A DNA stretch of 64,000 nt, from NCBI GenBank assembly GCA_964016885.1, contig OZ024742.1, positions 345,092,001-345,156,000 on the forward strand, written 5' to 3'. Shown here one piece after another: positions 972-64,000 of the stretch (positions are counted from its first letter, which is position 1; each line of letters opens with the position of its first letter). The position numbers and the translations under genes were made by a program. Origin of the DNA: Eledone cirrhosa. Taxonomy: Eukaryota. The notes below the pieces were generated by a model, which saw nothing but the letters and a program-made list of their open reading frames with translations, did no database searches and had not been told where the DNA came from.

Positions 972-1618
972 AAAACAAATAACGAAACGAAATTAAATTT
1001 CGTTTCGTTTGTAACTCACTTTTGTATGACTGACGCTTAAACAATTAAGTTAAAAATGTACATCCACATATGTATACTGAAATACTAGTATGCATATGAA
1101 TACACACACGTGTACATATGTAGATGTACCGAGTTTTTCACTGGACACTTTACTGTGAGTGTTCAGCTATTCTGTATGTAAACACACAGACAAACCGGTT
1201 TTTAGAGTCATACTGGTTTTCGAGGAAACACCTTTCCTCTATTCTCCAGAAAGCCAGACAGGAATATTGGACTAGTTTCGATGTTGTTACATCTCATCAG
1301 CAATATTTACCTATCCTCCGGCCTTTCTAGAGAATCGTAAAAGCACATATCGTTATATGCTTTTTCTATGAAAATTAGTAGTGGGCAGACTAATTTGCAT
1401 AGAGCGTGAGTACGTACCGGTTCAGCGGAGACGATAAAAACAAATAACGAAACGAAATTAAATTTCGTTTCGTTTGTAACTCACTTTTGTATGACTGACG
1501 CTTAAACAATTAGGTTAAAAATGTACATCCACATATGTATACTGAAATACTAGTATGCATACGATTCTCTAGAAAGGCCGGAGGATAGGTAAATATTGCT
1601 GATGAGATGTAACAACAT
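971..1618 (-). mobile_element. Non-coding HHR-containing tandem unit (~465-bp period) with terminal inversion, retrozyme-like
   Basis: 971-1095 recurs at 1436-1560; 1561-1618 is the reverse complement of 1281-1338; HHR at 1263-1307. Confidence 0.7.
1263..1307 (-). ncRNA. Type I hammerhead ribozyme
   Basis: Minus strand reads AATATTG CTGATGA GATGT-AACA-ACATC GAAA CTAG TC CAATATT: canonical core, 7-bp stem I, 5-bp stem II, palindromic ACTAGT stem III, GUC triplet. Confidence 0.9.
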
Positions 1619-1637
1619 TTTAATACTACAACAATTT

Positions 1638-2170
1638 TAATACTACTACACCAAATGACCAGCCCTGTCCACTGTCCAATTGGTCAAGTAGAGACTAAAA
1701 TTGGCACTCCCAAAAATTCTTATTTAGACAAAATGAACCATTTACTCATGGTATTCTCATTAGAAACCCATTATATACTTGTTTAGCAGTAAATTGATTT
1801 ACCATCTGTCATATACTATCCCCTCTTTTTCTTCCTCTATTACTAATATAAATACTTCAATTTTTCTGATTTTATCCAATTTATCCAAAATCTCTGAAGA
1901 AGTGACAACTGATTATACATTTGCTATCGAATACTTGCTAACATTATATGATTACGCAAGCAGCGATACATAGGTATTCCGTCTGTTACAGAAACATATG
2001 TCAATACCTAATAAGTTCCTTTTTAAAAAAAGCACTTTCATTTTATATTCATCCTTTCTACATTTTCTCCGGAATATAATTTATACTCGTTGAGCAAACC
2101 TGCACGTACGCTGTTCATCTCTAACGTAACGATATATTATCACTACATTATTGATAACCTGAAATTTTAT
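1638..2170 (+). repeat. PLE pseudo-LTR, upstream copy
   Basis: Near-identical to 4779-5311 (offset 3141). Confidence 0.92.
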
Positions 2171-2216
2171 TAATCTCCTATACAGTTGAACAACTAATTC
2201 AGCATACGCCTCTAAA

Positions 2217-4548
2217 ATGGAAAGGCACAAATTGGATATGTCGTTAAAAAACATACCTATTCAGGCAAAAAGGGAATATATTCTAGGTATGATACGAAGG
2301 ACCAATGATTTTATTCGACGAATCAGATGGAAGACATTCCATTTTGATAAAAGCCGTATAAACCAAACATCGGATCTTAACAAGGATAAATTTGGATTTA
2401 AATCTTACAAGAACCCACCCTCAAACCCACTTTTGGATGCTTTTGAACAAGACCTAATGGATATGATCATGGAGATCAAATTTACAAAACGGAAGAACAA
2501 TAAACTACAGAATGACATCACGGCACTGCTCAATAATCTAAAAAACGCCAATGGAATTATTGTTAGAGCAGACAAAACATCAAACGTATATACCATGGAT
2601 GTGGACACTTACAATAACTTCATCCTTAAGGAATTGCATAAAAAATACAGGAAAACTAATGAAGCTACACTTAAAAACATCAACAACTCGGCATGTGAAA
2701 TTGTTAAAAAACTTTGTATTGACGATAGAACGCAACCCTTAACACCAGCTATACCATCCTTCAACCTGAAGGACCACAAGGTAAACTTCGATACTAACCC
2801 TAATATTAGACTTATATGCCCCTCTAAATCTGATATAGGCAAAATTAGCAAATATATACTAGACAGAATTATCCCCCAAGTTAAGGTTAAAGTAGAAATT
2901 AAACTATGGGGTAACACTCATGAAGCAATAAGATGGTTTAATAACATTACTGATAAGAAAAAAATCAAAATTTATTCAGTTTGATATTGATGAATATTAT
3001 TCCTCAATTTCACCTGATACTCTACATGAAGCTCTTTCGTTCGCTAAGGATAATTCCGACCTTACGGATGCTGAAATTAAAATTATTATGGAAGCGAGGA
3101 AAACTATAGTTAAATTCGATGATAGCTACTGGGTTCGCAAAGATAGACCTTCTAATTTTGATATCACTATGGGTTCTAATGATTCGGCGGAAGTAACAGA
3201 TCTTGTGGGAATTTATATCACCCACAGATTACAAGGAAAATTCAAGGATCTCCACGGTGGAATCTACCGTGACGATGCGCTCCTATTAGTTAAGCATATG
3301 AATAACCAGAATTTAGAAAGGATGCGTAAAAATATCAGAAAGCTTTTTAAGGAACTAGGATTAAATATTACATTTGAATATAACCTCAAAGAGGTCAATT
3401 TCCTTGATGTTACTTTGAATCTCAATACAGATACGATTAAACCGTTCCATAAACTAAATGAGAACCTTAAATATGTAAATATGAGTTCTAACCATCCACT
3501 CTCTATAATTAAATCCATCCCTAGAAATATTTCTCTTAGAATCTCCCGCCTGTCGTCCAACCAACAAACCTTCAAAGAACATGCCGAATATTATGATGAT
3601 GCACTTAGGAAAGCCGGTCACCTAGATAATATAGAGTATATAGTCGAAGATCACCAAAACACCCAAAATAAATCCCATAGGAGTAGAAACAGCACAGAAT
3701 CACCACCATACATACACTACCGCAATAGACACAATAATAGTCGCACACCACCAAACAGAAGGCGATGTAAGGAGTATATTTGGTACAACCCGGTCTATAA
3801 CAACTCTATTAAAACCAATCTACCCTCAAAATTCTTTCGATTAGTTAAAAAACACTTTCCAACATCACATAAATATAATAAAATCTTAAACCCTAACACT
3901 ATTCGACTTTCATATTCAAACGCCCCTAATATTGAACAACATATAAAAAAGCTTAACGCAAAACGGTTGTATAAACGCCTTCCAACACATAACAATACAC
4001 GTAAAACATTAGCTATAACATCACAAAACAACAAACAACATCCTGTCCTACATAAGCAACCTCATCAACCCATCCATGACAATACAACAACGCAAAACTA
4101 TAATTGCAACTGTGTCCAACCAGGAATGTGTCCGTTGAACAATCAGTGTCTTGAACGCAACATCGTGTACCAATGTACTATCGAATCGGATAGACAGAAG
4201 TGGTACTATGTGGGATCTACAGCCACCTCCTTCAAATCACGCCTTTATAGACATCGTTACTCGATAAAACATGAAAACCAGCGTTATGTAACAACACTCG
4301 CAGACAAGGCTTGGCAGCTGCGTGAAAATAACCAACAATTTCACCTAAAATGGGATATAATAGCGGCTGCCCCCCCCCCCCCCCCCCCATATTCCCATGG
4401 ACAGGAATTTTGTAAATTATGTAATGTAGAATTATTTTGTATTATGAAATCCAAAAACATTTTATTAAATAACAGAATAGAGCGATCGTTATACTGTAAC
4501 CATCGCTTAAAATCTACATTTTCATATTATAAATACTACCAGGATTGA
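2217..4548 (+). pseudogene. PLE reverse transcriptase/GIY-YIG endonuclease, one frameshift near 2960
   Basis: Motifs ADKTSN, FIQFDIDEYYSSI (shifted frame), ITMGS, GIYRDD, NFLDV, IWYNP, CNC-x5-CPLNNQC, NIVY...YYVGST..FKSR and CKLC. The frameshift lies in an A-run. Confidence 0.92.
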
Positions 4549-4778
4549 ACGCCTGTCTCTATCTCCGTTTGATTGTCAAAATAGATATTAACATTCTTTA
4601 TTAGTCTTAATTCTATCAACTCTTCTATTATTTACCTTTTAATATAAACTGCTATAGATAAAATGAGATTTCTGATTTCTTGATTCAATTCCCTAATGCA
4701 TATACCAGCTGGCTACTAGCATTGATGTTATTCAGTAGCAATGGAAATCTCCCCCTTCCCCAATTGACACTTTATAAT

Positions 4779-5303
4779 TAATACTACTACACCAAATGAC
4801 CAGCCCTGTCCACTGTCCAATTGGTCAAGTAGAGATTAAAATTGGCATTCCCAAAAATTCTTATTTAGACAAAATGAACCATTTACTCATGGTATTCTCA
4901 TTAGAAACCCATTATATACTTGTTTAGCAGTAAATTGATTTACCATCTGTCATATACTATCCCCTCTTTTTCTTCCTCTATTACTAATATAAATACTTCA
5001 ATTTTTCTGATTTTATCCAATTTATCCAAAATCTCTGAAGAAGTGACAACTGATTATACATTTGCTATCGAATACTTGCTAACATTATATGATTACGCAA
5101 GCAGCGATACATAGATATTCCGTCTGTTACAGAAACATATGTCAATACCTAATAAGTTCCTTTTTAAAAAAAGCACTTTCATTTTATATTCATCCTTTCT
5201 ACATTTTCTCCGGAATATAATTTATACTCGTTGAGCAAACCTGCACGTACGCTGTTCATCTCTAACGTAACGATATATTATCACTACATTATTGATAACC
5301 TGA

Positions 5304-5311
<8 letters not shown>
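4779..5311 (+). repeat. PLE pseudo-LTR, downstream copy
   Basis: Near-identical to 1638-2170. Confidence 0.92.
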
Positions 5312-17324: not shown

Positions 17325-17930
17325 AAAAAAGAAAATTTCGCTCTACATGGTTGAATACAATAAATGTAATCTGAATTTTTCGAATATTAATAATAACATT
17401 CGATTCGTTTGCAATTTTGCAAACAAGCCTCAATTTTATAGCCATGTCAGTAGAATGAACATTTCATTCTTGCTCTTGTGTTGGCATGCGAACAGAACTG
17501 CAGACACTAATGTTTCTGGGTATCACCCTTCATCAGTACAGCTCACTGTTCACCTGCCAAACTGTCAGAGCTAGTGAAAATATATGCTATTTTCAAAAAT
17601 ACACAGTGACTGATCAGCCTGATTTGCATATTAGCACACTGGCTGATCAGTCAGATCAGCATATTAGCAGATCCACTGATCAGCCAGATTTGCATATCAG
17701 CAGACTGGCCAGTCAGTTTCCTGTATACGAGCGATAAATGGCCGGCTTTGCCAAATTCAAATAAAAAAGAAAATTTCGCTCTACATGGCTGAATACAATA
17801 AATGTAATCTGAGTTTTTCGAATATTAATAATAACATTCGATTCGTTTGCAATTTTGCAAACAAGCCTCAATTTTATAGCCATGTCAGTATTGAATGTTA
17901 TTATTAATATTCGAAAAACTCAGATTACAT
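17325..17930. repeat. Non-coding unit with ~125-bp direct terminal repeats (period about 438) and terminal inversion
   Basis: 17325-17451 recurs at 17763-17890; about 17892-17930 is inverted; internal CTGATCAG/ATTTGCAT subrepeats. Confidence 0.75.
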
Positions 17931-25086: not shown

Positions 25087-28000
25087 TGATGGCTGCCCCC
25101 TCGTTATCGAGTATGGCCATTGCACGAGGAGAGAAAAAAAATATTAATAAATAAATAAAAAAATAAAAAAAATAAAAAAAATATATATATATATATATAC
25201 ACACATACATATATATATATACACTCATATATATATACATACACACATATACATTAATAACAATAATAATAATAATAATAATAACAACAATAATAATGTA
25301 CAAATACATATATATATATATACACACACGTACACACATAAACACATCTATACACACACACACGATAGCAACCAACAGCGCTACGATCGAATGTGGCTTT
25401 TTAGCCCAGCCAATGATCTAAAATGTCTTGCACAGAGTCGGCAACCAAAACATTTACTGGGAATAGTCGGCTGTGGTTTGAGTTCGTGTACTTTTGCAGG
25501 TCGCTTGAGCCCTCCTGCTGATTTACATTCTCTACCACATGTTTGGCAAGCATGATGAGTAGCATCTCCAACAGCAGCCTGGTAGTCAACCACTGGTCTT
25601 ACTTTATGACTGCGAAGATGACTTTCGAGTCCAGCTTTGCTTAGGCAGAGTCTCGCACAGACGCTGCATGTCAGCACCATAGGAGGACCCTCGCCGTCTG
25701 GAAGTGCAACAGTAATGCCCTTCCTCACATCCCGCTTTACTTTCTCGTATGCGATTCGAGATGCCTCAAAGGAAACTTTTCCCTCATATACAGTATTTCT
25801 CCATTTATTACGATCAGCAGCAATATTTTCCCATGTATCAGCAGAGATGTTAGCGTCTTTGAAAGAGGCTTTCAAGGAATCCTTATACTTCTTTTTTGGT
25901 TTATGTGGCGGTCGTTTTTCTTTAACCAACTCTCCATAAAAGAGTTGTTTTGGTATTCTAGAATCCTTCATCCTGGCAAGGTGACCACTCCAACGGAGTC
26001 GTTGCTTAAGCACAAGAGCTTCTATACTGTCACACATAGAATAGAGCTTTCCAAAATCTCGACATCACTGATGAGGTCCCTCCAGTGAACGCCATGGATC
26101 CGTCTGAGACACATCTGAAGGAAACGCTCCAATTGCTTAAGGTGGTGTCGATATGTGACCCAGGTCTCTCAGGCATAAAGAAGACAAGAGAGCACACATG
26201 GCTTGTACACCTTTACCTTTGTCCTCCTGCATATGCCTCGCCGACTCCAGAGTCGCCTTTCTAGCTTTCCGAAAGCATCACTTGCTTTCCTAATCCTAAG
26301 TGAGATTTCACTGTCAAGGTTGCTGTATCAATTGACAGTGCTTCCCAGGTAGACAAACTGATCAACCACTCCAAGTCGTTTACCATACACATAGATATTT
26401 GGTTCAGTGTACTGCTTACCTGGGGCAGGTTGGTACATGACAACGGTTTTTTGGAGACTGACAGTCAATCCTAGGGCAGTGCAAGCGTCAGAAAATGCAT
26501 TCAAAATGTGCTGCATATCACTCTCTGTGTGCGCTACAAGATCGCAATCATCTGCATACAAGAGGTCTCTTATGATTGATGTACATACTTTTGTCTTTGC
26601 AGCAAAGCGGCTGATGTTAAATATGCTGCCTGAGGTTCGATATCGGATGTAAACACCATGCTCGCAATTCCTGAATGCAATACAGAAAACCATTGCAAAG
26701 TATATGGCAAACAGCGTCGGTGCTGGAATATCCCCCTTTTTCACTCCATTTTTTACTGAGATAGGCTCCGACATGTTACCTCCGACATTAACCCAAGCCT
26801 TCATGTCGTCATGGAAAGACTTAACTAAAGCAAGGCACTTATCAGGGCAACCAAGTTTCTGGAGAACCTTCCATAATGCATCTCTGTTAACAGTATCAAA
26901 GCTTTTGTCAGATCGACTAAAACCTAATACAGATCCAAGCCTTGTTCCATGCACTTCTCCTGGAGTGTCTAGCTAAGAAGGTCATATCAGTAGTGCCGCG
27001 TCCAGCACGAAAACCAGATTGACTTTCAGGAAGAACACAATCTGCAATGTGTGTCAGCAGACGGTCCAGAAGCACCCTACATAAAACTTTCCCTACGACA
27101 GAAAGCAATGATATACCTCTGTAGTTCCCACAATCATTCCTGTTACCCTTTCCCTTGTACAAACCACCATTACTGCACCTCTCCAGTCAGGTACGGATTC
27201 ATTAGCCCATATCCTGCCAAACAAAGAGTGAAGATGTTGCAAGAGTCTCTCACCACCATATTGTAGGAGCTCAGCATGTATGCCATCCATACCTGGAGAT
27301 CTTCTGCTGTTTAGCTTCGAGATAGCCACTGCAACCTCCACAAGCGTCGGAGGTTCTGTGAGAGCTACTTTCACAGGACTTTCTGGAATGAGATTGAGGA
27401 AATCTTCACTGACAACAGACGGCTGATTCAAATATCATCTAAGTGCTCTCGCCACCTTCGTAGAATTCCTTGTGAGTCACGAAGAAGTTCTTTGCCATCC
27501 TTGCTGCGAAGCGGTGTCACCAGAGAAGAAGACGGTCCATAAACCTCACGCAAGAGACTGTACAACTGCTTTGTGTTATTGGAATCTGACGCAGTTTGTA
27601 TCTCACCAGCCTTCTCACTCCACCACTGATCCTTCATCTGAGAAAGACTCCGCCTAACACGTGATTTTACATCCTTGAGTTCCTCATGCAACGTATTCCT
27701 CTCCTGTGGTTTTGCCGTCAAGTAGCGTGACAGAGCACGCCTCTTATCAGCCAACAAGTCTTCTATATGTACATCATTCTCATTAAACCAGTCCTGATGT
27801 TTTCTCTGCACCAATCCCAGAACACGCATGCCTACATCATAAACCGACATTTTAAGGGTCGGCCAATCCTCACCAAGATCTGCATCCTGCATCTCTTCTT
27901 CCAGTGTCCTCTTCACATTTTTATCCTTAAGACGAGCAGCATTCAATCTTTTGGGCAGGGCAACACCAGGAGCCCGGATTTTACGTTTAGTGATTAGTTT

Positions 28001-28782: not shown

Positions 28783-28819
<37 letters not shown>

Positions 28820-29403
28820 GGAAAAAATGAAACGAAATTTCATTTCCCACTCTTAGTACGGCTGTTACTTAAATATAAGTATGTACACGTACATACATAT
28901 ATGTATACAGACGTACAGTAGTATGTATATATGTATACATACATGCACACATATATATATGTACGTATGGATTCACCGAACATTTATTATAATGCTCGGT
29001 GTGTTTGTAAACAAACATCCCGTATTAAGCCGTAGTGTCTAGCAACCATCGTTGCTCGTTTGTTCAATACTGACAAAGGAACGCTGTACTAGTTTCAAGC
29101 TTATTAGCTATTTATTATAATAAATGTTCGGTGAATCCATACGTCCATACATATATGTGTGCATGTATATATATATATATACATACTACTGTACGTCTGT
29201 ATACATATATGTATGTACGTGTACATACTTATATTTAAGTAACAGCCGTACTAAGAGTGAGAAATGAAATTTCGTTTCATTTTTTCCGTTTATCGTTTTC
29301 GGTGCACCCGGCTGATTAACCCACTCGATATGCAAATTGGGCTACTCAGCCGTTAATATGCATAAGGTAAGTATATAAGTTCAACAATCTGGCAGGAAGG
29401 TAT

Positions 29404-29446
29404 ACGTTGCTGACGATAGCTAATAAGCTTGAAACTAGTACAGCGT
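29404..29446 (+). ncRNA. Type I hammerhead ribozyme
   Basis: ACGTTG CTGACGA TAGCT-AATA-AGCTT GAAA CTAG TA CAGCGT. Confidence 0.88.
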
Positions 29447-29830
29447 TCCTTTGACAGTGTTGAACAAACGAGCAACAATGGTTGCTAGACACTACGGCTT
29501 AATACGGGATGTTTGTTTACAAACACACCGAGCATTATAATACATGTTCGGTGAATCCATACGTACATATATATATATATATGTGCATGTATGTATATAT
29601 ATATATACATACTACTGTACGTCTGTATACATATATGTATGTACGTGTACATACTTATATTTAAGTAACAGCCGTACTAAGAGTGGGAAATGAAATTTCG
29701 TTTCATTTGTTCCGTTTATCGTTTTCGGTGCACCCGGCCGATTAACCCGCTCGATTTGCAAATTGGGCTACTCAGCCGTTAATATGCATAAGGTAAGTAT
29801 ATACGTTCAACAATCTGGCAGGAAAGGTAT

Positions 29831-29873
29831 ACGTTGCTGACGATAGCTAATAAGCTTGAAACTAGTACAGCGT
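29831..29873 (+). ncRNA. Type I hammerhead ribozyme, tandem copy
   Basis: Identical to 29404-29446, 427 nt downstream. Confidence 0.88.
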
Positions 29874-30099
29874 TCCTTTGTCAGTGTTGAACAAACGAGC
29901 AACGATGGTTGCTAGACACTACGGCTTAATACGGGATGTTTGTTTACAAACACACCGAGCATTATAATAAATGTTCGGTGAATCAATACGTACATATATA
30001 TATATGTGTGCATATATGTATATATATATACATAGTACTGTACGTCTGTATACATATATGTATGTACGTGTACATACTTATATATATATATATATATAT

Positions 30100-48310: not shown

Positions 48311-49369
48311 CATCTTTCTTTATTTGCCACAGGGGCGTACAAAAATGGGACATTACAATACGTGACGGCGGGGGTTTTACATAAAAATAACATTAATAAA
48401 TAACAATAAACTATATATAATAAAATAACAATTGAAATCCCCAATAGGGGGGAACGTTACTGCAGAGTTGTTTTACACCCCGTGGATAGAACAACCCTCA
48501 ACACCAGGAACACGTTTTGTAGGTGTTCCTGTCTTCCCTCTGTTTATCCTCCTCAACCTACAGGTTTATATACAGAGAAGGCCCATTCACTCGGCCCATT
48601 TTCGCCACATTCACCCACATTTCAGCGAATTTACTGGGGTGTAGCACCTCTCTCTCCACTCTCACCTTCCTTCTGAAGTGATATTTAAAGAAGGGGATAA
48701 ATTGTTGTCCGGAGAGAAAGGTGCTTACCCTCAGTCCTTTTAACCTCGTCCACCATATACCCTCTTTCGCCATAGCCACCAGACAGAGGAAAACCACCTC
48801 TCCTTCGTTCTTAAATGAAGGCGGCGGGGTGATCCTCACGATGGACTCGGCTGACAACTGGATGCTTCCCACACATGACAGCTGTTCGACACAATTCCAC
48901 AGGTCGGTCACCCCTGGGCACTGAACAATTGCGTGCAGAACGGTTTCGATGTCCTGCTCGCATCTTGGACAGGTCCTTTTGGCAGGATCTCTGTAGATTT
49001 TGTCTCGAATTGGTAGAGCTCCTCGGTAGCATTGCCTGGCCAGAGAAATCTGGATGTTATCCATAGGCCCTGGACGGAAAGTCCTCCAGAACAGACTGGT
49101 CAGTTCGTCCTCATTGATGCCTAGAGTTTTCCCGAGAACGTCGCCGCACTTACCCTTCACTAATCCCCTATAGAATGTCGAAGTGGAGTCTCCGCTGATT
49201 GCCGCTTCCGCTTGGTAGAGGGCTGTGAGCGCCTGTAGGCACTCAAGGTGCCAGGCACACATTTTCGGTCTTCGCTTCACCCAGGACTGCAGCTCTGTTA
49301 GTGAGACGAGTTGTGGAAGAGCTTGTCTCACAAACGACAGCCACACCGGTTCATTGGTCAGGAATACCT
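48311..49369 (-). mobile_element. Tx1/L1-like LINE, 5'-truncated copy
   Basis: C-terminal CPRC..ETVLHAIVQC; (GATA)n on both sides. Confidence 0.9.
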
Positions 49370-49371
49370 GG

Positions 49372-49404
<33 letters not shown>

Positions 49405-52400
49405 TGTTTCTTTATTAGCCACAGGGGCACAAAAGAAGGGGACAAATACAAAGGGGGAAGTTTACATACAATAAAAACGTGTAAAATGTTATCACAAATG
49501 CAATTTAAAAAGTTAGTCGATTTTCCCCCAATAGGGAGAGACAGTTCATATGGGTAACACATACCCACGAAAAAATGTGCAACCATCAACTCCAGGAGTA
49601 CGAAGAGTTTGTACTCCTTTCCTCTCCTCTCCTTTTCCTCAACCTACAGGCTGATATAGAGAGAAGGCCCATTCACTCGGGCCATTCTCGCCACTTTCAC
49701 CCACCTTTCATAAAACTTGCTGGGGTGCAGCACCTCTCTCTCCATCCTGATTCTTCTTCCAAAGTGGAATTTGAAAAAAAGAACCAGTTGTTGGCCGGAG
49801 AGAAAGGTGTCTGACCTCAGCCCTTTCAACCTTGTCCACCATGCAACCTCTTTCGCCATAGCTATCACACAAAGGAAAATCGCCTCTCCTTCGTTTTTGA
49901 AGTAGGGTGGCGGTTTGATCATGACAATGGACTCAGTGGTCAACCGGATTGGTCCCACCCGCGACAATAGTAGTTCTACATAGCCCCACAGGTCAGTGAC
50001 GCCCGGGCGGTGTATGAATGCGTGCGCGACGGTTTCTTCGTTATGCACGCACCTTGGAAAGATCTTTTTTGCAGGGTCCCTGCACGGGCTCCCATGTCTG
50101 TAGAGCTTGTCTCGAACTGGTAGAGCTCCTTGGAAGCACTGCCAGGCCAGGGACTTTTGGAAGTTGTCCATCGGTCCCGGGCGGAAGGTCCTACCAAACA
50201 GACTGGCCAGTTCATCTTCCTCTACGCCTAGAGTTTCACCGAGCGCGTGGTCGCACTTGCTGCGGATCAACCCTCTATAGAATGACGAAGTGGAGTCTCC
50301 ACTGATCGTCGGGTCCGCCTGCCAGAGGGCTGTGAGCGCCTGAGCACATTCGATGTGCCAGTCGCCCATTTTCCTCGATCTTTGCTTGACCCAAGACTGC
50401 AGCTCGGTGAGCGAGACGAGTCGTGGGAAGGCTCGCCTCACGAACGGGGGCCTCACCGGTTGTCCGGTGAGGAATACGTAGAGATCCCGCAGCCTGAGCG
50501 CGTGCTTGCGCATCGTCAACCACGGCATCCCCAGCCCTCCGTTACAAGGGTGTTGGCAGCAGATGGATTTCTCACCAAAGGAGCCCGCCTCTTCCAAAGG
50601 AATTGGAAGAGCGCGCGTTCCATTTTGCCGAGCCTTTTGGCTGGACAAGGCCCGACGGTCAAGCGGTAGTAGATGGCGGACGCTATAAAAGTGTTCGCCA
50701 CCTCCGCTCGACCTATCAAGGATAGTTTGCACTCGGCCCACTTCTGGGTGAGTGCAAACACCTTGGCCGTCACTTCGTTCCAGTTCTTCTCCACCTGGAG
50801 GTCCGGACCAAACCAGACCCCGAACATCTTTACCGGTCCTCCCATCCAGCGTCCGACGACGCCATCGGAAGGCATCGGTTTGCCTCTTCACAATCCGAGT
50901 TGCAAACCGATGGATTTGTCCCGGTTCAGCTTCGCTCCTGTGAAACTTTCGTATTCCTTCAGTAAGGTGCCGACTTCCTCGATTTGCGAGGCGCTCGACA
51001 GCATTACTTTAAACGTCGTCGGCGTAGGCCGACGCCGCTTTCCGCTGTACCGGTTCCAGAGCGATGCCCTGCAATAGCTTCAACTTCCGCAGTAGTGGCT
51101 CGAGAGTCAGTACGTACAGAAGGGAGAAGAGAGGGCATCCCTGTCGAATGGATCGCGTAATATGGAACGGCTCCGAGAGGTAGCCGTTCACCTTCACCCT
51201 TGAGCAGATGTTGGTGTTGTGCATTGCAGCAATCCAGCCCCTGAACACGAGTCGAACCCTGCCGCCTCGAGTACCGCATCCAGGTAACGATGGTCAACCC
51301 TATCGTAAGCCTTAGACTGATCCAAGTTGATCAGGGCCCCACCGAAGCCGGGTTTACACCCTACCCTCACTATGATGTATCGCATGAGGTGGAGGTTGTC
51401 GTGTATGGACCTGGTCGGGATTGCGCATGTCTGCGCTTCTCCCACCAGGTTCTCGACGACAAGCGCCAACCTCTTTGCCAACACCTTGGCCAAAATCTGT
51501 AACTCTGTGTTTAGCAGAATGATGGGCCGGAAGTTGCCTATGTCATCCCCCTTATTCTCGTCCTTCCTGATTAGTGTGACTACGCCCCCGGTTACAGAAC
51601 TGGGAATTCTCCCGTTCTGTTGCCAGTTGCAGTAGACCGCTTCCAGGAGACCGGAGAATAAGTCCGGCATTGCTACGTAAAATTCGTAGGGTAGACCGTC
51701 GAGACAGGAGATTTGCGTTTGCCGCATTGGCCCAGCGCGTCCCCTATCTCAGCGACTGAAATCGGCTTTTCGCAGAACTTTGCCTCGCTGTCCGAGAGTC
51801 GAGGTAGGCCGTCGAGGTATGGACCGAAATCCAGAGCCCCTCCCGGCGCGCCTCCCCGCCCGAACAGTTGAAAAGTGCCGCTGAAAGGCCGCACACATCT
51901 GCTTCGGCTCACGTATCACGCGTCCGTTTTGGTCCTTCAAAGACCGAATCGTGGACTTGTTGCCACTTTTTGCCTCCGTCAGTCGGGCCCAGCTAACAGC
52001 TTTGGCTCCCTCGTTTCCGAGAGCACGTATTTTGCTTCTGACAACGCAGCCCTCGTGCTTTGCGTCGAAGAACTGGTCCAAGGCCGTTCTCGTTGCTAGC
52101 ACGCTGGCTACGTTGCCACTTCTAATTGCCTCTTCTACTTTATCTACCAGTTCCTTCTCGGTTCTATTTCTATCTAACGCTAATTCTTTACTAAAAACTA
52201 ACGAGTCTAATCTAACTGCCTTCTTGAGAGAGTACCACCATCTTTGTTGACAATGGCCCTGTCAAGTGCTGTTTAACAAAAGTGCTAATCCGTCTACTGT
52301 AGGCTTTGCTTGTCGTTAACGACAAGTTTAGCTTCCAGTAGCCGGGTCCTTGTCTATGGGTTCTATCAAGGTTGGTCATGCAGGTCACTAGTTTGTGATC

Positions 52401-52668
52401 TGAATAGGCAACCATGAACATTTGTGGACAGCTTAACATGCCCCTATCCTTATTTCTAACTAGAACCCTATCTAGGTACGATCTAGATGTTCCGCTGCGA
52501 TTAGTCCACGTACACAGTGGCACAGTCGGAAAATCTAGTCGAGATCTATCGGCCAGGTCAAATCGGTCGATTAACTGTTTGAGGCTGTTACACCCCCCTT
52601 TATCGGGACATGCTCCCACATAGTCCCAACATGCATCTAGGATTCCATTCCAGTCCCCCACTAAAAGC
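49405..52668 (-). mobile_element. Tx1/L1-like LINE, ORF2 from mid-APE to 3' end, frameshifted
   Basis: GDWN, SYLDR, SDH, GYWKLN, NFRPI.LLN, RQGCPL, AYADD and C-terminal region. Confidence 0.92.
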
Positions 52669-55235
52669 ACATCAACCACGGCATCCCCAGCCCTCTTTTC
52701 GAAGGTTGTTGGAAGCAGATGGATCTTCTCACTATAGGAGGGTGCTTCTTCCAAAGAAATTGAAAGAGCATGCGTTCCATGGTGGTGAGTGTTTCCTTAG
52801 GGCAAGGCACGACAGTCAGGCGGTAGTAAGTGACGGACGCTATGTAAATGTTCGCCACCTCCGCCCGACCTTTTAGGGACAACTTACACTTGGCCCATTT
52901 CTGGGTTAGTGCAAACACCTTGTTCGTAACCTCTCCCCAGTTCTTTTCCACCTGGAGGTCCGGTCCAAACCAGACCCCAAGCAACTTCACCGGGCCCTCC
53001 GTCCGGTGTCCGACGACACCGTCGGGAGGCATCGGTCTGCCTCTCCACGTTCCGAGTTACAGCCCGATGGATTTTTCCCGGTTCAGTTTCGCTCCTGACA
53101 ACCTTTCGTATTCCGCCAGTAAGGTACCCATCGCCTCGATCTCCGAGTCGGTCGATACCATTACTGTTACGTCATCGGCGTAGGCCGACACCGCTTTGCT
53201 CAATCCTGGTTCCAGGGGGATACCCTGCAACAACTCCAAATTCCTCAGTAAAGGCTCGAGAGTCAATACGTACAGAAGGGAGGAGAGAGGGCACCCCTGT
53301 CGAATGGATCGTGTGATTTCGAACGGCTTCGAAAGGTAGCCGTTCACCTTGATCCTAGAACAGATGTGGTTGCTATGTAAGGCAGTGATCCAGCCTCTGA
53401 AAACAGGACCGAACCCAGCCGCCGCTAGCACCGCATCCAGGTAACCATGGTCGACCCTATCGAAGGCCTTAAACTGATCCAAGTTGATCAGGGCCCCACC
53501 GAAGCCGGGTTTGTTGCCAACCCTCTCTATGATGTATCGCATGAGGTGGAGGTTATCGTGAATGGACCTGGATGGGATAGCACATGTCTGCGCATCTCCC
53601 ACCAGGCCACCCACGACAAGCGCCAACCTCTTTGCTAACACCTTGGCCAAAATCTTTAACTCTGTGTTTAGCAGGGTTATGGGCCGAAAATTATTTATAC
53701 TATCCCCCTTGTTCTCGTCCTTCCTCACCAGCGAGACTACGCCCTTGGCTACAGAACAAGGAATTCTCCCGTTCTGCTGCCAATTGCAGTACACTGCTTC
53801 GAGGAGTTCGGAGAAGAAGACCGGCATTGCTAAATAAAGTTCGTAAGGTATACCATCGAGACCTAGAGATTTGCGTCTGCTGCATTGGCTCAGCGCATCC
53901 CCGATCTCATCAGCCGAGATTGGTCCCTCGCAGGACTCTGCCTCTTCGCTCGAGAGACGCGGCAGGCCGTCGAGGTATGGACCGAAATCTACGTCCCCGC
54001 CCGGACCCTCGCCTCCCCCGAACAATCGGGCAAAGTGCCTTTGAAAGGCCTCGCACATCTGCTTAGGCTCCCGGATCACCCGTCCATCCTCGTCTTGCAA
54101 AGAACGGATGGTGGATCGATTTCCACTCTTAGCTTCTGTCACGCGGGCCCAGCCAACGGCTTTGACCCCCTCATTACCTAGAGCACGTATTTTACTTCGA
54201 ATGACGCAGCCTTCGTGCTTTGCATCGAAAAACTGGCCCAAGGCCGTCCTCGATGCCAGCACTCGCCACATCTTCGCTCTTGATTGCCTCTTCTAATTTA
54301 CCTGTTAATTCTTTCTCGTTCCTATTCCTATCGGCAGCTAACATCTTGCTATAACTTATTGATTCTGTTCTAATCTCTCTTTTGAGAGATACCCACCATC
54401 GGTTGTTGACGATTGCAGCCGTCAACCTCTCCTTAACTAATCTGCTAATCCGGTTTCTGTAAGCCTCTTTTGCCGGTAAAGACAAATTAAGTTTCCAGTA
54501 ACCGGGACCCTGTCTATGTGTTTTCTCGAGATTGACTACGCAGGTCACTAATTTGTGATCTGTATAGCCAACCGTGAGCATTTCAGGACAGCTTAATATG
54601 TCCCTACCTTACTTCTAACTAAGAATCTATCTAAGTACGATCGAGATTTGACCACTGTAGTTCGTCGAAGTCCAGGTTGGCACAGTTGGAAAATCTAGTC
54701 GATATCTATTGACCAAGTTAAAACGGTCGAGTAACCCCTTGAGGCTGTTACACCCCCCTCTATTAGGACATACTCCTGCATAGTCCTAACATGCATCTAG
54801 GATGTCATTCCAATCCCCCGCTAGAAGCAGGGAACGCGACGTTCCCAGAAAAGTCTCCAGAGGCTGGAAGAAGTCGGGTCGTTCAGCTCCGAAAGGGGAG
54901 TTGACGGCGACCTGGCTCAAGGCCGCACCTCCACTACTGCCAACGTCTAGCACCAACAAACGACCTTCCGGGTCCGAGTGAACAACCTGTACGGCGAGAC
55001 CCAGGTGGTTTTGCAGCAGTACAACAACCCCACCCCCACCTCCAGGTTGACAGAGAGATGCATGCACCTCAAAGTCATCGAAGGTAGGGGCCAGCTGCCG
55101 CATGACGCTGATCCGAGTCTCACAGATAACCATTACATTTATACCACGTGACCTGAGGTCATTTAGAAGCTTTGCTTGCTTCCAAGTTGAGCCCAGGCCA
55201 CGTGCATTCAAACATCCTACTCTTAACACATCCAT
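52661..55235 (-). pseudogene. ORF2: APE endonuclease plus reverse transcriptase, several frameshifts
   Basis: CLNARGL, ICETR, AGDWN, TDH, KAFDRV, RQGCPLS, AYADD. Confidence 0.92.
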
Positions 55236-57372
55236 GTGGGCGGAAAAGCCAAAGGAGAGTGTAGGAACCTACCTTTCTGCTTCCCGGGGTTCGGGTCGCA
55301 CGACTTCCATGGGGTCGGGGTGTTGGTTGAAGGGGTTTCTTGTGGTGGTGTGGGGTCGTCAGTGTGTGGTGGGGTTGGGGTCTTTGGAGTTGTGTTGGGG
55401 AGGGGAAGGGGAGGGGGAAAGCTTTTTAGGAGGACGCGGTTTAAGGGTTTGACAGAGGGTGGTCCTACGTCCTCCTTAAAATCCCTTTTCAGTTTTTGGT
55501 AGAGGTTCATTGGGATCTTTATTAATTTTTAATGTGGGTAGTTTTCTGAAGAAACAAAGTTTACCCTTTCGGTTTGTACCGAAGGGTTATTGTTTATGAG
55601 TTCATTTAATTTATTATTGTTTCTGTTGATGTAAGTATAGTGTAATGTCTTTTTTTCGGATGGTGTGAGTGTTTCGAAGAAGGGAGGGGCAGGTTTGGTT
55701 TTGTTTGTTGCTGGAGAGGTGTTTTGTGTTTTGTTGGTTTGTGTTGACATTTGGGTAGGGGCTGTTTGGCCTTGTGTGTTTTGCACATGTTTTCTTTTTT
55801 TCCTTTTAATCTGTCTGAAGGACTCCGTTTCTTCCTCCGAATTCGTTGGGTGATCTTCAGTGTTGGAGGGAAGAGGTATGTTTGCTCGTAATGTTTCCGT
55901 GTTGGTTTTCTTTGTGGGGGAGATGGATGTCACTATGTTAGACTGTGTTGTGTGTTGTGGCTGCGGTGGTTGTGTTGTTTTATTGAGTGAGGGGTTGGGT
56001 GCGACTGTGTTTTGTTTTTGGGTAATGTGTTGTGTCTGTTTGTGTTGTGGTGGTGGTGTAGTTTTACTGAGGGACGAGTTGGGTGGAACTGAGTTTTGTT
56101 GTTTGTTTATCTGTTGTGGTGGTGGTGGAGCTGGTGTTGGTAGCAGGGTTTTCTTCTTGTTGAGTTGGGGACAAGCCGCCTCCAGGTGCCCTCTGCCTGC
56201 ACAGATATGAAAGGACGGCCTTCTCCCCTCCACGCTAATGTTTATATACCCGTGGCCCTCTAATAGGATTTTGTCGGGTATTTGGGCAATGCGTTCAGGC
56301 TTCATTTGCACTACAAGTTCTATACCTGTTCCACTAAACGCATTCCCTGTGGTTTTCCCAATGGAAATCACGTTGTCATTCGCTTGATCGATGAAGCCAG
56401 CTATGAGCCAGCAGTAGTCCATATCTGGCATCATCGCATCCATATAAGATGGATGAAAGGTAAAATTTGTCGAACGAATCGGCGACAAAGCATATTTTTT
56501 TGCCGCTGATTCGTTCTTCATAATAATGGCTAGGCTTCCATACAGCCTGTCTCTTCTTATGAAAGTGGCTTCATTAAGTACTTCTCTAAGTACTGCTTTA
56601 ATTTCTGCTTGTGTTGGTTGTTGAAGTTTTTTTGAGATGTTGTTGATGGTGCGAAAAACGACCGTCCGACTTTCAATATCTTTGGTGAGTTCTTGGGGCA
56701 TTTTTACTGACAAGGTTCCATTTTCCCCTTGAGTTATGAATTGTTTGGCATTTTTAATTCTTTGTGCCACATCTGAAATATTTTCAGGTATATATGTTAA
56801 AGATTTTTTTGTTGTTTGTGCAAATGAGATATTATTGGTGTTGACTTTGTTGTCTGTTTTGCTTTCTGTTATGATGTTGTTTTCAAATGTTATTTTTGTG
56901 TTTGTTGTTTCTTTGTTTGTGGTATTAATATTGTCATGCAATTCTTTCAAATTTTTTTGTTGTTGGAATCAATCTCCAGATTTGTGTTTTCGTCATTTTT
57001 CTCCGCACATTCGTCTGTTTTTATTTTATTTTTTCTTTCCTTCTCTATGACGTTAGTTGGGAAGGAAGGGGGGGACTAAAGCGTGCGAGCTTACAACGCT
57101 TACCGCTGTCCCCCCACCACTATTTTCGTTAGCTTCATTTAACATTTCTGCCAGACGATTGAAATTTTATGCACAAAATTTTTAAAAACAGGTTTTTCAC
57201 CCCTGGGAGAGGCGAAGATGAGCTGACCTACCGCCTGACAGTTCAGACGGGGGGTCAAGCTACACAATAGTATCAAAATTAAAATTAAACTTGCAAAATT
57301 TCCGCAATAAATTGGAACAAAACTTCTGCGCGCAGTGAATTACGTCTACGCTGTCGAACAGACGACAGCTAG
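52669..57372 (-). mobile_element. Tx1/L1-like LINE with 5' end, ORF1 and ORF2 (3' end lost)
   Basis: 5' UTR adjacent to (GATA)n, ORF1, APE and RT; breaks off at GLGMPWL. Confidence 0.92.
55529..56950 (-). CDS. Tx1-like ORF1 (gag-like, degenerate zinc knuckle)
   Basis: 473-aa ORF upstream of ORF2; F-H-I-C-x3-GH-x4-CP knuckle; P/Q/T-rich tail; probable frameshifted continuation 55510-55223. Confidence 0.8.
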   Translation of the reverse strand: MKELHDNINTTNKETTNTKITFENNIITESKTDNKVNTNNISFAQTTKKSLTYIPENISDVAQRIKNAKQFITQGENGTLSVKMPQELTKDIESRTVVFRTINNISKKLQQPTQAEIKAVLREVLNEATFIRRDRLYGSLAIIMKNESAAKKYALSPIRSTNFTFHPSYMDAMMPDMDYCWLIAGFIDQANDNVISIGKTTGNAFSGTGIELVVQMKPERIAQIPDKILLEGHGYINISVEGRRPSFHICAGRGHLEAACPQLNKKKTLLPTPAPPPPQQINKQQNSVPPNSSLSKTTPPPQHKQTQHITQKQNTVAPNPSLNKTTQPPQPQHTTQSNIVTSISPTKKTNTETLRANIPLPSNTEDHPTNSEEETESFRQIKRKKRKHVQNTQGQTAPTQMSTQTNKTQNTSPATNKTKPAPPFFETLTPSEKKTLHYTYINRNNNKLNELINNNPSVQTERVNFVSSENYPH

Positions 57373-57379
57373 ATTAAGA

Positions 57380-57380
57380 G

Positions 57381-57444
<64 letters not shown>

Positions 57445-57445
57445 T

Positions 57446-57492
<47 letters not shown>
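57380..57492. repeat. (GATA)n microsatellite between LINE copies
   Basis: Directly visible. Confidence 0.97.
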
Positions 57493-57493
<1 letters not shown>

Positions 57494-57509
57494 TGTAAAG
57501 AAATAGATA

Positions 57510-58406
57510 TGTTTCTTTTATTTGCCACCAGGGCATCAAAAGTGGGACAAGTACAATGGGGGGAGTTTACAAAACAAGGCGTCCTCAATAAGGAGGAGGC
57601 AATAACAATATATAAAAATAAAATAAAATATAACAAAAAATAAAATTTATAACAAAGTCCTCAATAGAGAGGAGGCGCCTTGGGGGGTCGCACACACCCC
57701 CGAAAAAAATGTCCAACCCTTCTCCTCAGGAGCACAGAGAAGGGGTGCTCCCTTGGTCTTTCATCTTCCTCACCTATAGTCTGATGTAGAGTGAAGGCCC
57801 ATTCACACGGGCCATTCTCGCCACTTTCACCCATCTTTCATAGAAACGGCTGGGGTGCAGCACCTCTCTCTCCATCCTGATCCTTCTTCCGAAATGATAT
57901 CGGAAGAAACGGACCAGTTGTTGGCCAGAGAGAAAGGTGTCTGACCTCAGTCCTTTCAGACGCGTCCACCATACAACCTCTTTCGCCATGGCTATTACGC
58001 ACAGAAACACCGCCTCTCCTTCGTTTTTGAAGAGGGGAGGCGGCTTGATCGTTACAATAGACTCGGTGGTCAACCGGATCGGTCCCACCCTTGACAGCAG
58101 TTGTTCGACATAGCCCCACAGATCGGCAATGCCCGAGCAGTGTACCAATGCGTGTGCAACGGTTTCCTCGTCGCACACGCATCTGGGACAGACCTTTTTC
58201 GATGGGTCCCTACCCGGGCGCCCGTGTCTGTAGAGCCTTTCTCGAACGGGCAGAGCCCTTCTGTAGCATTGCCAGGCCAGGGACCTCTGGAAGTTATCCA
58301 TGGGTCCCGGGCTGAATGTCCTACCGAACAGGTTGGCCAGTTCGTCTTCCTCCATGCCTAGGGCTTCTCCGAGGGCGTCGTCGCACCTGCTAACCACCAG
58401 CCCTCT
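57510..58406 (-). mobile_element. Tx1/L1-like LINE, 5'-truncated, with 19-bp TSD
   Basis: ATATGTAAAGAAATAGATA at 57491-57509 and 58407-58425. Confidence 0.9.
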
Positions 58407-58435
58407 ATATGTAAAGAAATAGATAGATAGATAAA

Positions 58436-60703
58436 TGTCTTTATTAGCCACAAGGGCACAAAAGAAGGGGACAAATACAAATGGGGAGTTTACATACAGG
58501 TATATGAAAATTAATTGAAACTATTAATAAAATAACAAATAACAATTGAAATCCCCAAAAGGGGGAAGGCGTTACACAGGGGTTGTACACACCCCGAACA
58601 ATGTACAACCCTCATCTCCAGGAGCACCAAGAGTGAGTACTCCAATCCTCCTTTTCCTCAACCTACAAGCTTATATAGAGAGAAGGCCCAACCACTCGGG
58701 TCATCTTTGCCACATTCACCCATCTTTTATAAAATTTGCTGGGGTTCAGCACCTCGCTCTCCATCCTGATTCTTCTTCCAAAATGATATTTGGAAAAACG
58801 AATAAGTTGTTCGCCGGAGAGAAAGGTGTCTGACCTCAGCCCTTTTAACCTCGTCCACCATATAACCTCTTTCACCATAGCCATAACACATAGGAAAACC
58901 GCCTCTCCTTCGTTTTTGAAGGAGGGTGGCGGTTTGATCATGACAATGGACTCGGTGGTCAACTGGAGTGGTCCCACATGCGACAAAAGTCGTTCTACAG
59001 AACCCCACAGGTCGGTAACGCCCGGGCAGTGTACAAATGCGCGCGCGACGGTTCCATTGTCGCGCACACATCTCGGACTGACCATTTTCGAAGGGTCCCT
59101 TCCTGCGCGCCCGTGTCTGTAGAGCTTGTTTCGAACTGGAAGAGCTCCTCTGTAGCACTGCAAGGCCAGAGACTTTTGGAAGTTGTCCATTGGTCCCGGG
59201 CGAGAAGTCCTACCGAACAGCCTGGCCAGTTGGTCCTTCTCTACGCATAGAGTTTCTCCGAGCGTGTCGTCGCACTTGCTGCGGACCAACCCTCTATAGA
59301 ATGTCGAAGTGGAGTCTCCACTGATCGCCGGGTCCGTTTGCCAGAGGACTGTGAGCGCCTGAGCACATTCGATGTGCCAGTCGCCCTTATCCTCGGTCTT
59401 TGCTTGACCCAGGACTGCAGCTCGGTCAGCGAGACGAGTCGTGGGAAGGCTCGCCACACGAATGGGGGCCCACACCGGTTGTCCGGTGAGGAATACGTGG
59501 AGGTGCCACACCCTGAGCGCGGGTTTGCGCATCGTCAGCCACGGCATCCCTATCCCTCCGTTTGAAGGGTGTTGTCAGCAGATGGATCTTTTCTCACCAA
59601 AGGAGCCCGTTTTTTCCAAAGGAATTGGAAGAGCGCGCGCTCAGTTTTGGTGATTGTTTTGGCTGGACAAGGCACGACGGTCAAGCGGTAGTAGATGACG
59701 GACGCTATAAAAGTGTTCGCCTCCTCCGCTCGACCTTTCAAGGATAGTTTGCACTCGGCCCACTTCTGGGTGAGCGCAAACACCTTGGCGGTCACCTCGT
59801 TCCAGTTCTTCTCCACACGGAGGTCCGGACCAAACCAGACCCCTAGCAGCTTTACCGGTCCTTCCGTCCAGCGTCTGACAACTCCATCGGAAGGCATCGG
59901 TTTGCCTCTCCACGTTCCGAGTTGCAAACCGACGGATTTGTCCGGGTTCAGCTTCCCTTCTGTGAATCTATCGTATTCCTTCAGTAAGGTGCCGACCTCC
60001 CCGATTTGCGAGGTGCTCGACACCATTACTGTCACGTCGCCGGCGTAGGCCGACGCCCCTTTTCGCAGTCCCTTGGTCACAGAACTGGGAATTCTCCCCT
60101 TCTGCTGCCAATTGCAGTAGACCGCTTCCAGGAGACCGGAGAACAAGTCCGGCATTGCTACGTAAAATTCCTAGGGTAGACCGTCGAGACCTGGAGATTT
60201 GCATTTGCTGCATTGACTCAGCGCGCCCCCTATCTCAGCGGCTGAAATCGGCCTTTCGCAGAACTTCGCCTCGCTGTCCGAGAGTCGCGGTAGGCCGTCG
60301 AGGTATGGACCGAAATCCATAACCCCTCCCGGAGCCGCCCTGCCCAAACATTTGAGCAAAGTGCCGCTGAAAGGCCGCGCACATCTGCTTCGGCTCACGT
60401 ATCACGCGTCCGTCTTGGTCCTTCAAAGACTGAATCGTGCCCAGCTAACAGCTTTGGCTCCCTCGGTTCCCAGAGCACGTATGTTGCTCCTGACAACGCA
60501 GCCTTCATGCTTTGCGTCGAAGAACTGGCCCAAGGCCGTTCTAGACGCTAGCACGCTGGCTACGTTGCCACTCCTAAGTGCCTCTTCTACTTTATCTACC
60601 AGTTCCTTTTCGGTCTTATTCTTTACTAAAACCTATCGACTCTAATCTAACTGCCCTCTTGAGAGAGTACCACCATCTGTTGTTGACAATGGCCCCCGTC
60701 AAG
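58436..60703 (-). mobile_element. Tx1/L1-like LINE, 5'-truncated with internal RT deletion
   Basis: SSVTK is joined directly to ..ASAYAGD at about 60070; GATAGATAG at both junctions. Confidence 0.9.
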
Positions 60704-63170: not shown

Positions 63171-63475
63171 AACTATATTAATTGAGGAATCAATGAACCG
63201 TATTAATCTTTGGTCTTATATATATACATATATATATATATATTCTGTGTATATATGTATATGTGTGTGCGTGTGTGTGTGCGTTCGTGTGTGTGTATGC
63301 TTTAAATCCTTTATTTCTTCAGCACTACTTCACTCCCACACCCATTAACACCGCACCCCACCCCAGACACATCCAAATCTCTCATATGTAGAGTCACACA
63401 TCACAACACAACCCGATCTCAGTTTGACAATCGCCACCGACGAATGCGAGAAAGTTATCCAGGAAAGTTAACCAT

Positions 63476-64000
63476 GTAAGTATGTATGTATACGTACATA
63501 CATATATGTATACAGACGTACAGTAGTATGTATATATATACATACATGCACATATATATATATGTACGTATGGGTTTACCGAACATTTATTATAATGTTC
63601 GGTTTGTATGTAAGCAAACAAACAGCCCGAATTACGCCGTACAATGTTCAGGCAACCATCGTCGTCTTTTTTTCCCTTCATCTGGCAGGAAGGTATACGA
63701 TGCTGACGATAGCTAATAAGCTTGAAACTAGTACATCGTTCCTGTGTCAGTGTTGAACAAAAAGGTGACGATGGTTGCCTGAACGCTGTACGGCGTAATT
63801 CGGGCTGTTTGTTTGTTTACAAACAAACCGAACATTATAATAAATGTTCGGTAAACCCATATGTAGATATATGTATATATATATATATATATATGTGTGC
63901 ATGTATGTATATATATACATACATCTGTACGTCTGTATACATATATGTATGTACGTATACATACATACTTATATTTAAGTATCAGCCGTACTAAGAGTGA
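63476..64000 (+). mobile_element. Diverged copy of the 427-bp retrozyme-like family with 5' inversion
   Basis: Homologous to 29385-29685; 63476-63665 is inverted. Confidence 0.82.
63697..63739 (+). ncRNA. Type I hammerhead ribozyme
   Basis: ACGATG CTGACGA TAGCT-AATA-AGCTT GAAA CTAG TA CATCGT. Confidence 0.9.

What the first reader, a model, noticed from the sequence alone, without database searches (positions are those of the whole stretch)
63476..64000. Dispersed copy shows compensatory change in HHR stem I
Stem I is ACGTTG/CAGCGT (U-G pair) at 29404 but ACGATG/CATCGT (A-U pair) at 63697. Both partners changed while the core and stems II and III stayed identical and the flanks diverged. This suggests selection on the ribozyme fold. 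The copy again has a 5' inversion, consistent with a mobile family.
Basis: partly seen in the sequence, partly recalled or inferred. Interest (0 to 1): 0.7.

Follow-up and report, generated by a model that had tools for sequence, protein, structure and literature searches.

The report
Subfamily base-pair swap in a retrozyme
The two-sided base-pair difference is real, but it separates two large subfamilies of a known kind of ribozyme-carrying genome parasite (a retrozyme with thousands of copies) and likely arose in steps through a G·U pair, while the family as a whole shows changes that keep its predicted RNA fold.

Summary
In detail: stem I pair 3 is A-U at 63700/63736 and U·G at 29407/29443, with an identical 31-nt core. 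It is not special to this copy. The element is a 420-460-nt tandem, non-coding repeat with a type I hammerhead, a non-LTR retrozyme, with 11,463 genomic matches. About 95% carry U·G (~6,460), A-U (~2,520) or G·U (~1,860) at that pair, by subfamily. On a tree of 171 copies the 3' base changes once, so the covariation is one event, with no statistical power alone. G·U is the likely ancestral state: G·U to A-U is one-sided, and G·U to U·G is the double change. Flanks did not diverge; they are 84-85% identical. Better support for selection on the fold comes from elsewhere: substitutions between subfamilies favour unpaired sites and keep pairs over the 335 columns tested (p about 0.004-0.005), and a sister family (about 10,800 copies) swaps several stem I and II pairs. 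Inserted copies decay, so selection likely acts on the source RNAs. Insertions carry Penelope marks: (TA)n targets, back-to-back arms, a 60-nt tail, and two retrozyme-Penelope joined insertions. Cleavage and expression are untested. Known kind, modest interest.

The parts
63474..63671 (-). Inverted, 5'-truncated arm of the retrozyme; its outer end falls at the family's 'site 2' end (no tail)
   Evidence: end classes
63679..64000 (+). Main arm of the retrozyme (A-U subfamily); continues about 455 nt beyond the window with a second hammerhead 456 nt after the first, ending at 'site 1' in (TC)n(TA)n
63682..63750 (+). Type I hammerhead motif: distal stem I, UAU bulge, proximal stem I, core, stems II and III
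63697..63702 (+). Stem I 5' strand; variable base of pair 3 at 63700 (A)
63703..63733 (+). CUGACGA core, stem II with a U·U base and UAAUAA loop, GAAA, palindromic 2-bp stem III, GUA triplet; predicted cut after 63733
   Evidence: cut site inferred from hammerhead rules
63734..63739 (+). Stem I 3' strand; variable base of pair 3 at 63736 (U)
28817..29109 (-). Inverted arm of the U·G-subfamily insertion; outer end at 'site 1' in (TA)n
29114..30083 (+). Tandem arm, 2.3 units of 426 nt, hammerhead cores at 29410 and 29837, pair 3 U·G; ends at 'site 2' in (TA)n
980..1618 (-). Copy of the sister retrozyme family (461-470-nt unit; hammerhead core 1300-1270) that supplies the deeper pair swaps
1637..5308 (+). 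Penelope-like element (RT and GIY-YIG motifs read by eye, two reading frames, 531-nt terminal repeats 99.4% identical) joined to the sister retrozyme without a TA run; candidate helper

Best explanation
This is one insertion of a non-coding tandem retrozyme with over 11,000 hammerhead matches in the genome, and its A-U pair marks a subfamily that likely descends from a G·U ancestor, from which the U·G subfamily likely arose by a separate two-step wobble flip. Inferred cycle: a tandem locus is transcribed; neighbouring hammerheads cut it (likely as dimers through the palindromic stem III) into a highly folded unit-length RNA that is likely circularised; a Penelope-like reverse transcriptase/endonuclease primes on nicked (TA)n DNA at two fixed points of that RNA, 60 nt apart, and copies through the ribozyme junction, giving back-to-back, 5'-truncated tandem arms. 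Only RNAs that fold and cut would found new subfamilies, so pair-keeping changes build up in source elements while inserted copies decay.
For: Shown: 11,463 matches with pair 3 left free; 2,062 non-A with U, of which 205 U·U and none C·U among the first 100 listed; 173 non-U with G; 245 with A or C on the 3' side; the other 8,983 split about 23:59 A-U:U·G by my count of the first 100 listed. Eight subfamily clusters form a chain; the G·U cluster is the most diverged from its own majority sequence (median 0.046 against 0.019-0.035). Three older copies that share core letters with the sister family carry G·U (2) or A-U (1). One change of the 3' base, six of the 5' base, on 171 copies. Of 52 substitutions between subfamily majorities, 31 fall at unpaired sites (40% of 335 columns; p=0.004) and 13 of 21 at paired sites keep or restore a pair (null 0.32; p=0.005), using a structure folded from the oldest cluster alone. 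A second two-sided change (A-U to G-C) lies outside the ribozyme. Seven real monomers fold as circles at z -5.1 to -10.6. Across families 9 of 21 pairs change on both sides against 2-5 in slid controls. 156 of 205 terminal motifs run into (TA)n. 66 of 78 two-armed loci have one end at each of two sites 60 nt apart. Only 3 of 456 arms begin within 6 nt of the cut site.
Against: No Rfam hammerhead model matches, at gathering score in the window or at E<=10 in 63400-64000. The stem II closing pair is U·U, not the usual purine-pyrimidine pair. The pair in question gives one independent contrast, which cannot reach significance. In one search the number of double-changed pairs was reached by 49 of 500 shuffles, most of them come from one family split, and I drew the structure from these sequences. 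The substitution test uses seven hand-chosen edges, counts a few sites more than once and has a rough null. Antisense strands also fold well (z -2.8 to -8.5). Copies were found by their core, so core invariance is partly built in. The intermediate is not settled: U·U is enriched in the old background (8 of 34 against 9 of 111; p=0.005, but 0.13 if old copies decay twice as fast), and G·G is too (3 of 8). In the preprint only 1 of 9 Xenopus retrozyme dimers cleaved in vitro.
Confidence: 0.8

Rival explanations
1. The pair-3 difference is neutral hitch-hiking: two unrelated substitutions were fixed in source elements and amplified together, and pairing was kept by chance.
For: One event only. 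From a G·U pair, one in three single changes on either side keeps a pair. The flip must have passed through a mismatch, and U·U and G·G copies are enriched in the old background.
Against: Every large class at this pair is paired (94.6% of 11,463) although it changed at least four times along the chain; the sister family has U-A there (44 of 48 with the modal stem); the same bias holds elsewhere in the RNA.
Confidence: 0.25
2. One reading: this copy acquired a direct U·G to A-U double change because the host keeps its ribozyme functional.
For: The two window copies do differ at both bases with an identical core.
Against: A-U is shared by about 2,500 copies; G·U sits between the two states; other stem I pairs are altered in 4 to 12 of 114 unselected copies each, most at CpG; the second hammerhead of this insertion has a broken stem III pair.
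Confidence: 0.03
3. The units are solo terminal repeats (pLTRs) of a Penelope-like element, copied from long read-through transcripts, with no circular RNA stage.
For: Inversions, tails and (TA)n targets are Penelope marks (PMC8557442 passages). Read-through of the cut site fits an uncut multimer as well as a circle. The preprint reports retrozyme-pLTR homology in Xenopus.
Against: The terminal repeat of the window's Penelope-like element has no match to this family in the window or the loci. The hammerhead has the canonical 6-bp stem I and loop-bulge layout, not the minimal pLTR form (PMC4209133). Penelope-like coding hits were found in only 14 of 335 loci, mostly across a TA run.
Confidence: 0.15

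Closest known systems
Metazoan non-LTR retrozymes (Cervera and de la Pena 2020, PMC7229834: parts 2 and 3 of 6 and search passages read, supplements not seen; Li, Clavereau and Pollet 2026, 10.64898/2026.07.22.740005: parts 1 and 3 of 5 and search passages read)
   Same: Tandem non-coding units with a type I hammerhead in each, GC under 50%, thousands of copies, highly self-paired predicted RNA, Penelope-like elements in the same genome. The U·U at the base of stem II with a 2-bp stem III resembles axolotl HHR_Amex2.
   Different: Units of mostly 416-463 nt are at or above the top of the reported range (150-450 bp). Expression, cleavage and circles are shown there and untested here. The parts I read report no subfamily-level covariation, two-ended insertion sites or retrozyme-Penelope joined insertions.
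Canonical metazoan type I hammerhead (Cervera and de la Pena 2014, PMC4209133: part 1 of 4 read)
   Same: Helix I of 6 bp, helix II of 4 positions, helix III of 1-2 bp with a small palindromic loop, said there to need a dimer for efficient cleavage.
   Different: First pair of helix II is U·U here (C-G, C·A or G-C in older copies and the sister family); no Rfam model detects it.
Penelope-like retroelements, EN+ clades (Craig et al. 2021, PMC8557442: search passages only)
   Same: 5' truncation, partial tandems, inverted 5'-truncated arm, a tail at one end only, (TA)n targets.
   Different: No ORF; tail of 60 nt rather than 30-40; no detected similarity to the terminal repeat of the one full Penelope-like element compared.

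Membership tests
Type I hammerhead ribozyme | Core CUGANGA, GAAA and NUH triplet in type I order | tested here: met
   CUGACGA, GAAA, GUA at 63703-63733; invariant core columns across two families
Type I hammerhead ribozyme | Three helices supported by pairing and covariation | tested here: met
   Fold; 93.5% of cells paired, 9 of 21 pairs changed on both sides, slid controls 30-44% and 2-5. Caveat: helix II closes with U·U.
Type I hammerhead ribozyme | Match to an Rfam hammerhead model (a proxy, not part of the definition) | tested here: not met
   0 matches at gathering score; none among 87 matches at E<=10
Type I hammerhead ribozyme | Self-cleavage at the NUH site | not testable with these tools
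   Needs in vitro transcription
Non-LTR retrozyme | Tandem units of a few hundred bases, one type I hammerhead per unit | tested here: met
   426-nt period; 456 nt for this insertion; spacing table
Non-LTR retrozyme | No coding capacity, GC below 50% | tested here: met
   No ORF of 150 aa over 63476-64000; GC 0.28 and 0.38 in the 2-kb bins holding the two loci
Non-LTR retrozyme | Highly self-paired predicted circular monomer | tested here: met
   7 of 7 monomers, 65-68% paired, z -5.1 to -10.6 on 25 shuffles each; antisense also below shuffles
Non-LTR retrozyme | Expressed as linear and circular unit-length RNA | not testable with these tools
   No RNA run was available to test it
Non-LTR retrozyme | Target-site duplication longer than 4 bp where present | tested here: inconclusive
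   Hidden by (TA)n targets; one 9-nt duplication read by eye in L057
Penelope-mobilised element | Inverted 5'-truncated arm, one-sided tail, (TA)n target | tested here: met
   5'-to-5' arms in 35 of 90 loci, 8 of 30 unselected; 66 of 78 two-armed loci with one tailed and one untailed end; 156 of 205 ends in TA
Penelope-mobilised element | An identified autonomous partner with shared terminal sequence | tested here: inconclusive
   No shared sequence with the one terminal repeat compared; two joined insertions suggest partners

The most novel reading that the evidence does not exclude
These retrozymes are evolving RNA replicators under selection on their whole fold, with stem I pair 3 held near one stability (A-U, U·G and G·U amplified at -5.0 to -5.6 kcal/mol for the 6-bp duplex; C-G and G-C at -7.6 only at decay level, about 40 and 5 copies), and single insertions that join a retrozyme to a Penelope-like element between two (TA)n runs (L187/L336 for this family, window 980-5308 for the sister family) are template switches that name the helper enzymes.
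Probability: 0.4. Interest if true: 0.62.

Novelty: new member of a known kind. Interest (0 to 1): 0.36.

Why it matters
The flagged pair by itself is a minor point: one inherited change in a known class of element. What is useful is that a family with over 11,000 datable copies records the order in which a ribozyme helix changed (G·U to A-U and back; G·U to U·G through a mismatch), giving natural variants for a cleavage test, and that joined insertions point to specific Penelope-like enzymes as helpers. The papers read propose that helper role from co-occurrence and phylogeny only.

Tried and rejected
Rfam scans found no hammerhead; the miRNA-family hits are below threshold and fall on the TA-rich hairpin. 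Search for RNA runs: no RNA holder listed; this is no evidence on expression. Laying four unlabelled contig runs showed the same variable sites in the run of organism A; runs of two other organisms held only 7 and 2 contigs and were not used for rooting. Pfam did not name the two Penelope-like proteins; a homolog search gave 83 almost wholly unnamed relatives, so 'Penelope-like' rests on RT (YRDD) and GIY-YIG-type motifs read by eye, the terminal repeats and the TA end, and the clade was not determined. Repair of an imperfect palindrome by one template switch was rejected: it would give C-G or U-A, not A-U. A U·U founder subfamily was tested and left open. Run-off of reverse transcription at the cut site was looked for and not found. 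A helper sharing terminal sequence was not found. Paper searches gave no paper on cephalopod retrozymes or on this covariation; only the held library was searched and supplements were not seen. Look-ups of earlier notes near the window and by sequence returned nothing. R-scape is not available here.

Full report
Observation. At 63697-63739 the window has a type I hammerhead layout: stem I ACGAUG/CAUCGU, CUGACGA, a four-position stem II that opens with U·U, loop UAAUAA, GAAA, a 2-bp palindromic stem III and GUA. The copies at 29404 and 29831 have ACGUUG/CAGCGU. Over 71 nt the 63697 and 29404 copies differ at four places, two of them the partners of stem I pair 3. The flanks are homologous, 84-85% over 181 nt. 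The inverted arm is real. Beyond the window the insertion has a second hammerhead 456 nt on, with a broken stem III pair, and ends in (TC)n(TA)n. Rfam did not detect the motif.

What it is. The exact 31-nt core occurs 10,046 times in the 3.0-Gb genome and the reversed pattern 0 times. Units are mostly 416-463 nt in tandem, without ORFs at this locus. This fits the non-LTR retrozymes of PMC7229834 (parts 2-3 of 6 and passages read) and the canonical metazoan hammerhead of PMC4209133 (part 1 of 4). Earlier notes of this scan call the animal a cephalopod; I did not test that.

Pair 3 across the genome. With both bases free there are 11,463 matches. Of these 2,062 are C/G/U with U, 205 of them U·U and none C·U among the first 100 listed; 173 are A/C/G with G (41 A, 23 C, 36 G in the first 100, counted by eye); 245 have A or C on the 3' side (56 U-A, 21 U·C, 13 A·C, 4 A·A, 4 G·A, 2 G-C in the first 100). 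The remaining 8,983 are A-U or U·G, about 2,520 and 6,460 by the 23:59 split in the first 100. So three paired states make up 94.6%, and independence would give about 2,700 U·U.

How many events. That covariation is inherited. On a tree of 171 copies with the three main states, built without the two columns, the 3' base changes once and the 5' base six times; there is one independent contrast. Clustering 233 copies with intact flanks (of 452 collected; rare states were over-sampled on purpose) gave eight subfamilies. The G·U cluster is the most diverged (median 0.046), a small mixed cluster follows (0.035; 3 U·U, 3 U·G, 2 G·U, 2 other of 10), and the rest lie at 0.019-0.030. Three further old copies that share CUGAUGA and GUU with the sister family have G·U (2) or A-U (1). 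The likely order is G·U to U·G on the branch to the 29404 copies and G·U to A-U, later back to G·U, on the branch to the 63697 copy. The flip needs a mismatch step. U·U is enriched in the old background (8 of 34 against 9 of 111; p=0.005, 0.13 with doubled decay), as is G·G (3 of 8), so the intermediate is open. Some mismatched copies look like recombinants of two subfamilies.

Selection on the fold. Along seven edges joining the eight subfamily majorities (194 copies, 335 columns, TA-rich hairpin left out) there are 52 substitutions. With a structure folded from the oldest cluster alone, 31 fall at unpaired sites (40% of columns; p=0.004) and 13 of 21 paired-site changes keep or restore a pair (null 0.32; p=0.005); with the alignment fold the figures are 29 of 52 (p=0.014) and 19 of 23, but that fold is fitted to the data. 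Edges were chosen by hand and a few sites count more than once. A pattern excluding this family's stem II found 10,857 further hammerheads, 97 of the first 100 a sister family with 461-470-nt units, stem I AUAUUG/CAAUAU and stem II GAUG/CAUC or GUUG/CAAC; one copy lies at window 980-1618. On 18 aligned representatives (17 distinct), 93.5% of cells pair and 9 of 21 pairs change on both sides, against 30-44% and 2-5 for slid controls; 49 of 500 shuffles reach 9, and most swaps come from the one split between families. Seven real monomers fold as circles at z -5.1 to -10.6, their antisense strands at -2.8 to -8.5. Inserted copies decay: the other five stem I pairs are altered in 4, 4, 12, 12 and 4 of 114 unselected copies. 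I infer that selection acts on which RNAs found new subfamilies. Computed 6-bp duplex energies are -5.6 (A-U), -5.2 (U·G), -5.0 (G·U), -7.6 (C-G, G-C) and -0.9 to -3.5 kcal/mol for mismatches; the absence of amplified strong pairs may mean tuned stability or just A+T-biased mutation.

How it moves. Of 205 terminal motifs that do not continue into another unit, 156 run into (TA)n, 6 into (TC)n and 43 into other sequence, some of them sister-family matches. Back-to-back arms occur in 35 of 90 loci, 8 of 30 unselected. These are the Penelope features listed in PMC8557442 (passages only). Only 3 of 456 arms begin within 6 nt of the cut site, about 9 expected from the 89 arms starting between -30 and +99, so the template is a circle or an uncut multimer, not a cut linear monomer. 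Penelope-like coding hits lie in 14 of 335 loci, mostly across a TA run. In L187/L336 a retrozyme of this family runs without TA into Penelope-like RT and endonuclease sequence that ends in (TA)n, and at window 980-5308 the sister family is joined to a full Penelope-like element. A template switch explains both; insertion followed by deletion is not excluded. The preprint 10.64898/2026.07.22.740005 (parts 1 and 3 of 5) argues for Penelope helpers from co-occurrence and trees and saw cleavage in 1 of 9 dimers.

Shown and inferred. Shown: sequence difference, copy numbers, subfamily structure, insertion ends. Inferred: ancestral state, selection on source RNAs, dimer cleavage, circles, the helper. 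Untested: expression and cleavage.

Verdict. A real difference, one inherited event, in a new member of a known class that other notes of this scan have already met many times in this genome (1,111 notes fit the look-up). Interest 0.36.

Noticed in passing
window 980-5308: Sister retrozyme arm joined 5'-to-5', with no TA run between, to a full Penelope-like element; the whole lies between two (TA)n runs. Possible single insertion primed on two different RNAs.
   Followed up: partly
L187 and L336 (G000:C1, about 247,524,400-247,527,700): Retrozyme of this family runs directly into fragments of two Penelope-like families and ends in (TA)n; candidate helper family.
   Followed up: partly
window 29322-29329 region; 80-88 nt (this family) and 100 nt (sister) upstream of the core; also near 17628 on the minus strand: The octamer ATGCAAAT is kept at a fixed place in all eight subfamilies (71-100% of members) and the sister family (41 of 48). 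An snRNA-type promoter with an octamer in newt satellite 2 is recalled; searches did not retrieve it.
   Followed up: partly
window 17331-17920 (-): Third hammerhead-like repeat, unit about 441 nt, with its own small inversion.
   Followed up: no
window 11568-11608 (+): Minimal hammerhead of the Penelope terminal-repeat kind, 150 nt before a (TA)n end.
   Followed up: no
window 15675-16970 (-): 3' part of a second Penelope-like ORF (431 aa, RT end and GIY-YIG-type motif); no Pfam hit.
   Followed up: partly
L057 1230-2120: Retrozyme array inserted into a Penelope-like ORF with a 9-nt duplication, then partly duplicated in the host element's inverted arm.
   Followed up: no
window 4778-5308 and 1637-2167: Terminal repeats of the window's Penelope-like element show no CUGANGA-GAAA hammerhead in the motif scan.
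   Followed up: no
G000:C1 5,738,326-5,752,444 (L296-L315): Array of about 31 sister-family units of 466 nt with a short inverted arm.
   Followed up: no
window 48543-60170 (-) and 25384-26972 (-): Rearranged LINE-like fragments with RVT_1 and zf-RVT hits, and a C2H2 zinc-finger frame next to an RVT_1 frame.
   Followed up: no
loci: A fourth small hammerhead type (stem II UUUC/GAAU, stem I GUAAUC/GAUUAC) turned up three times.
   Followed up: no
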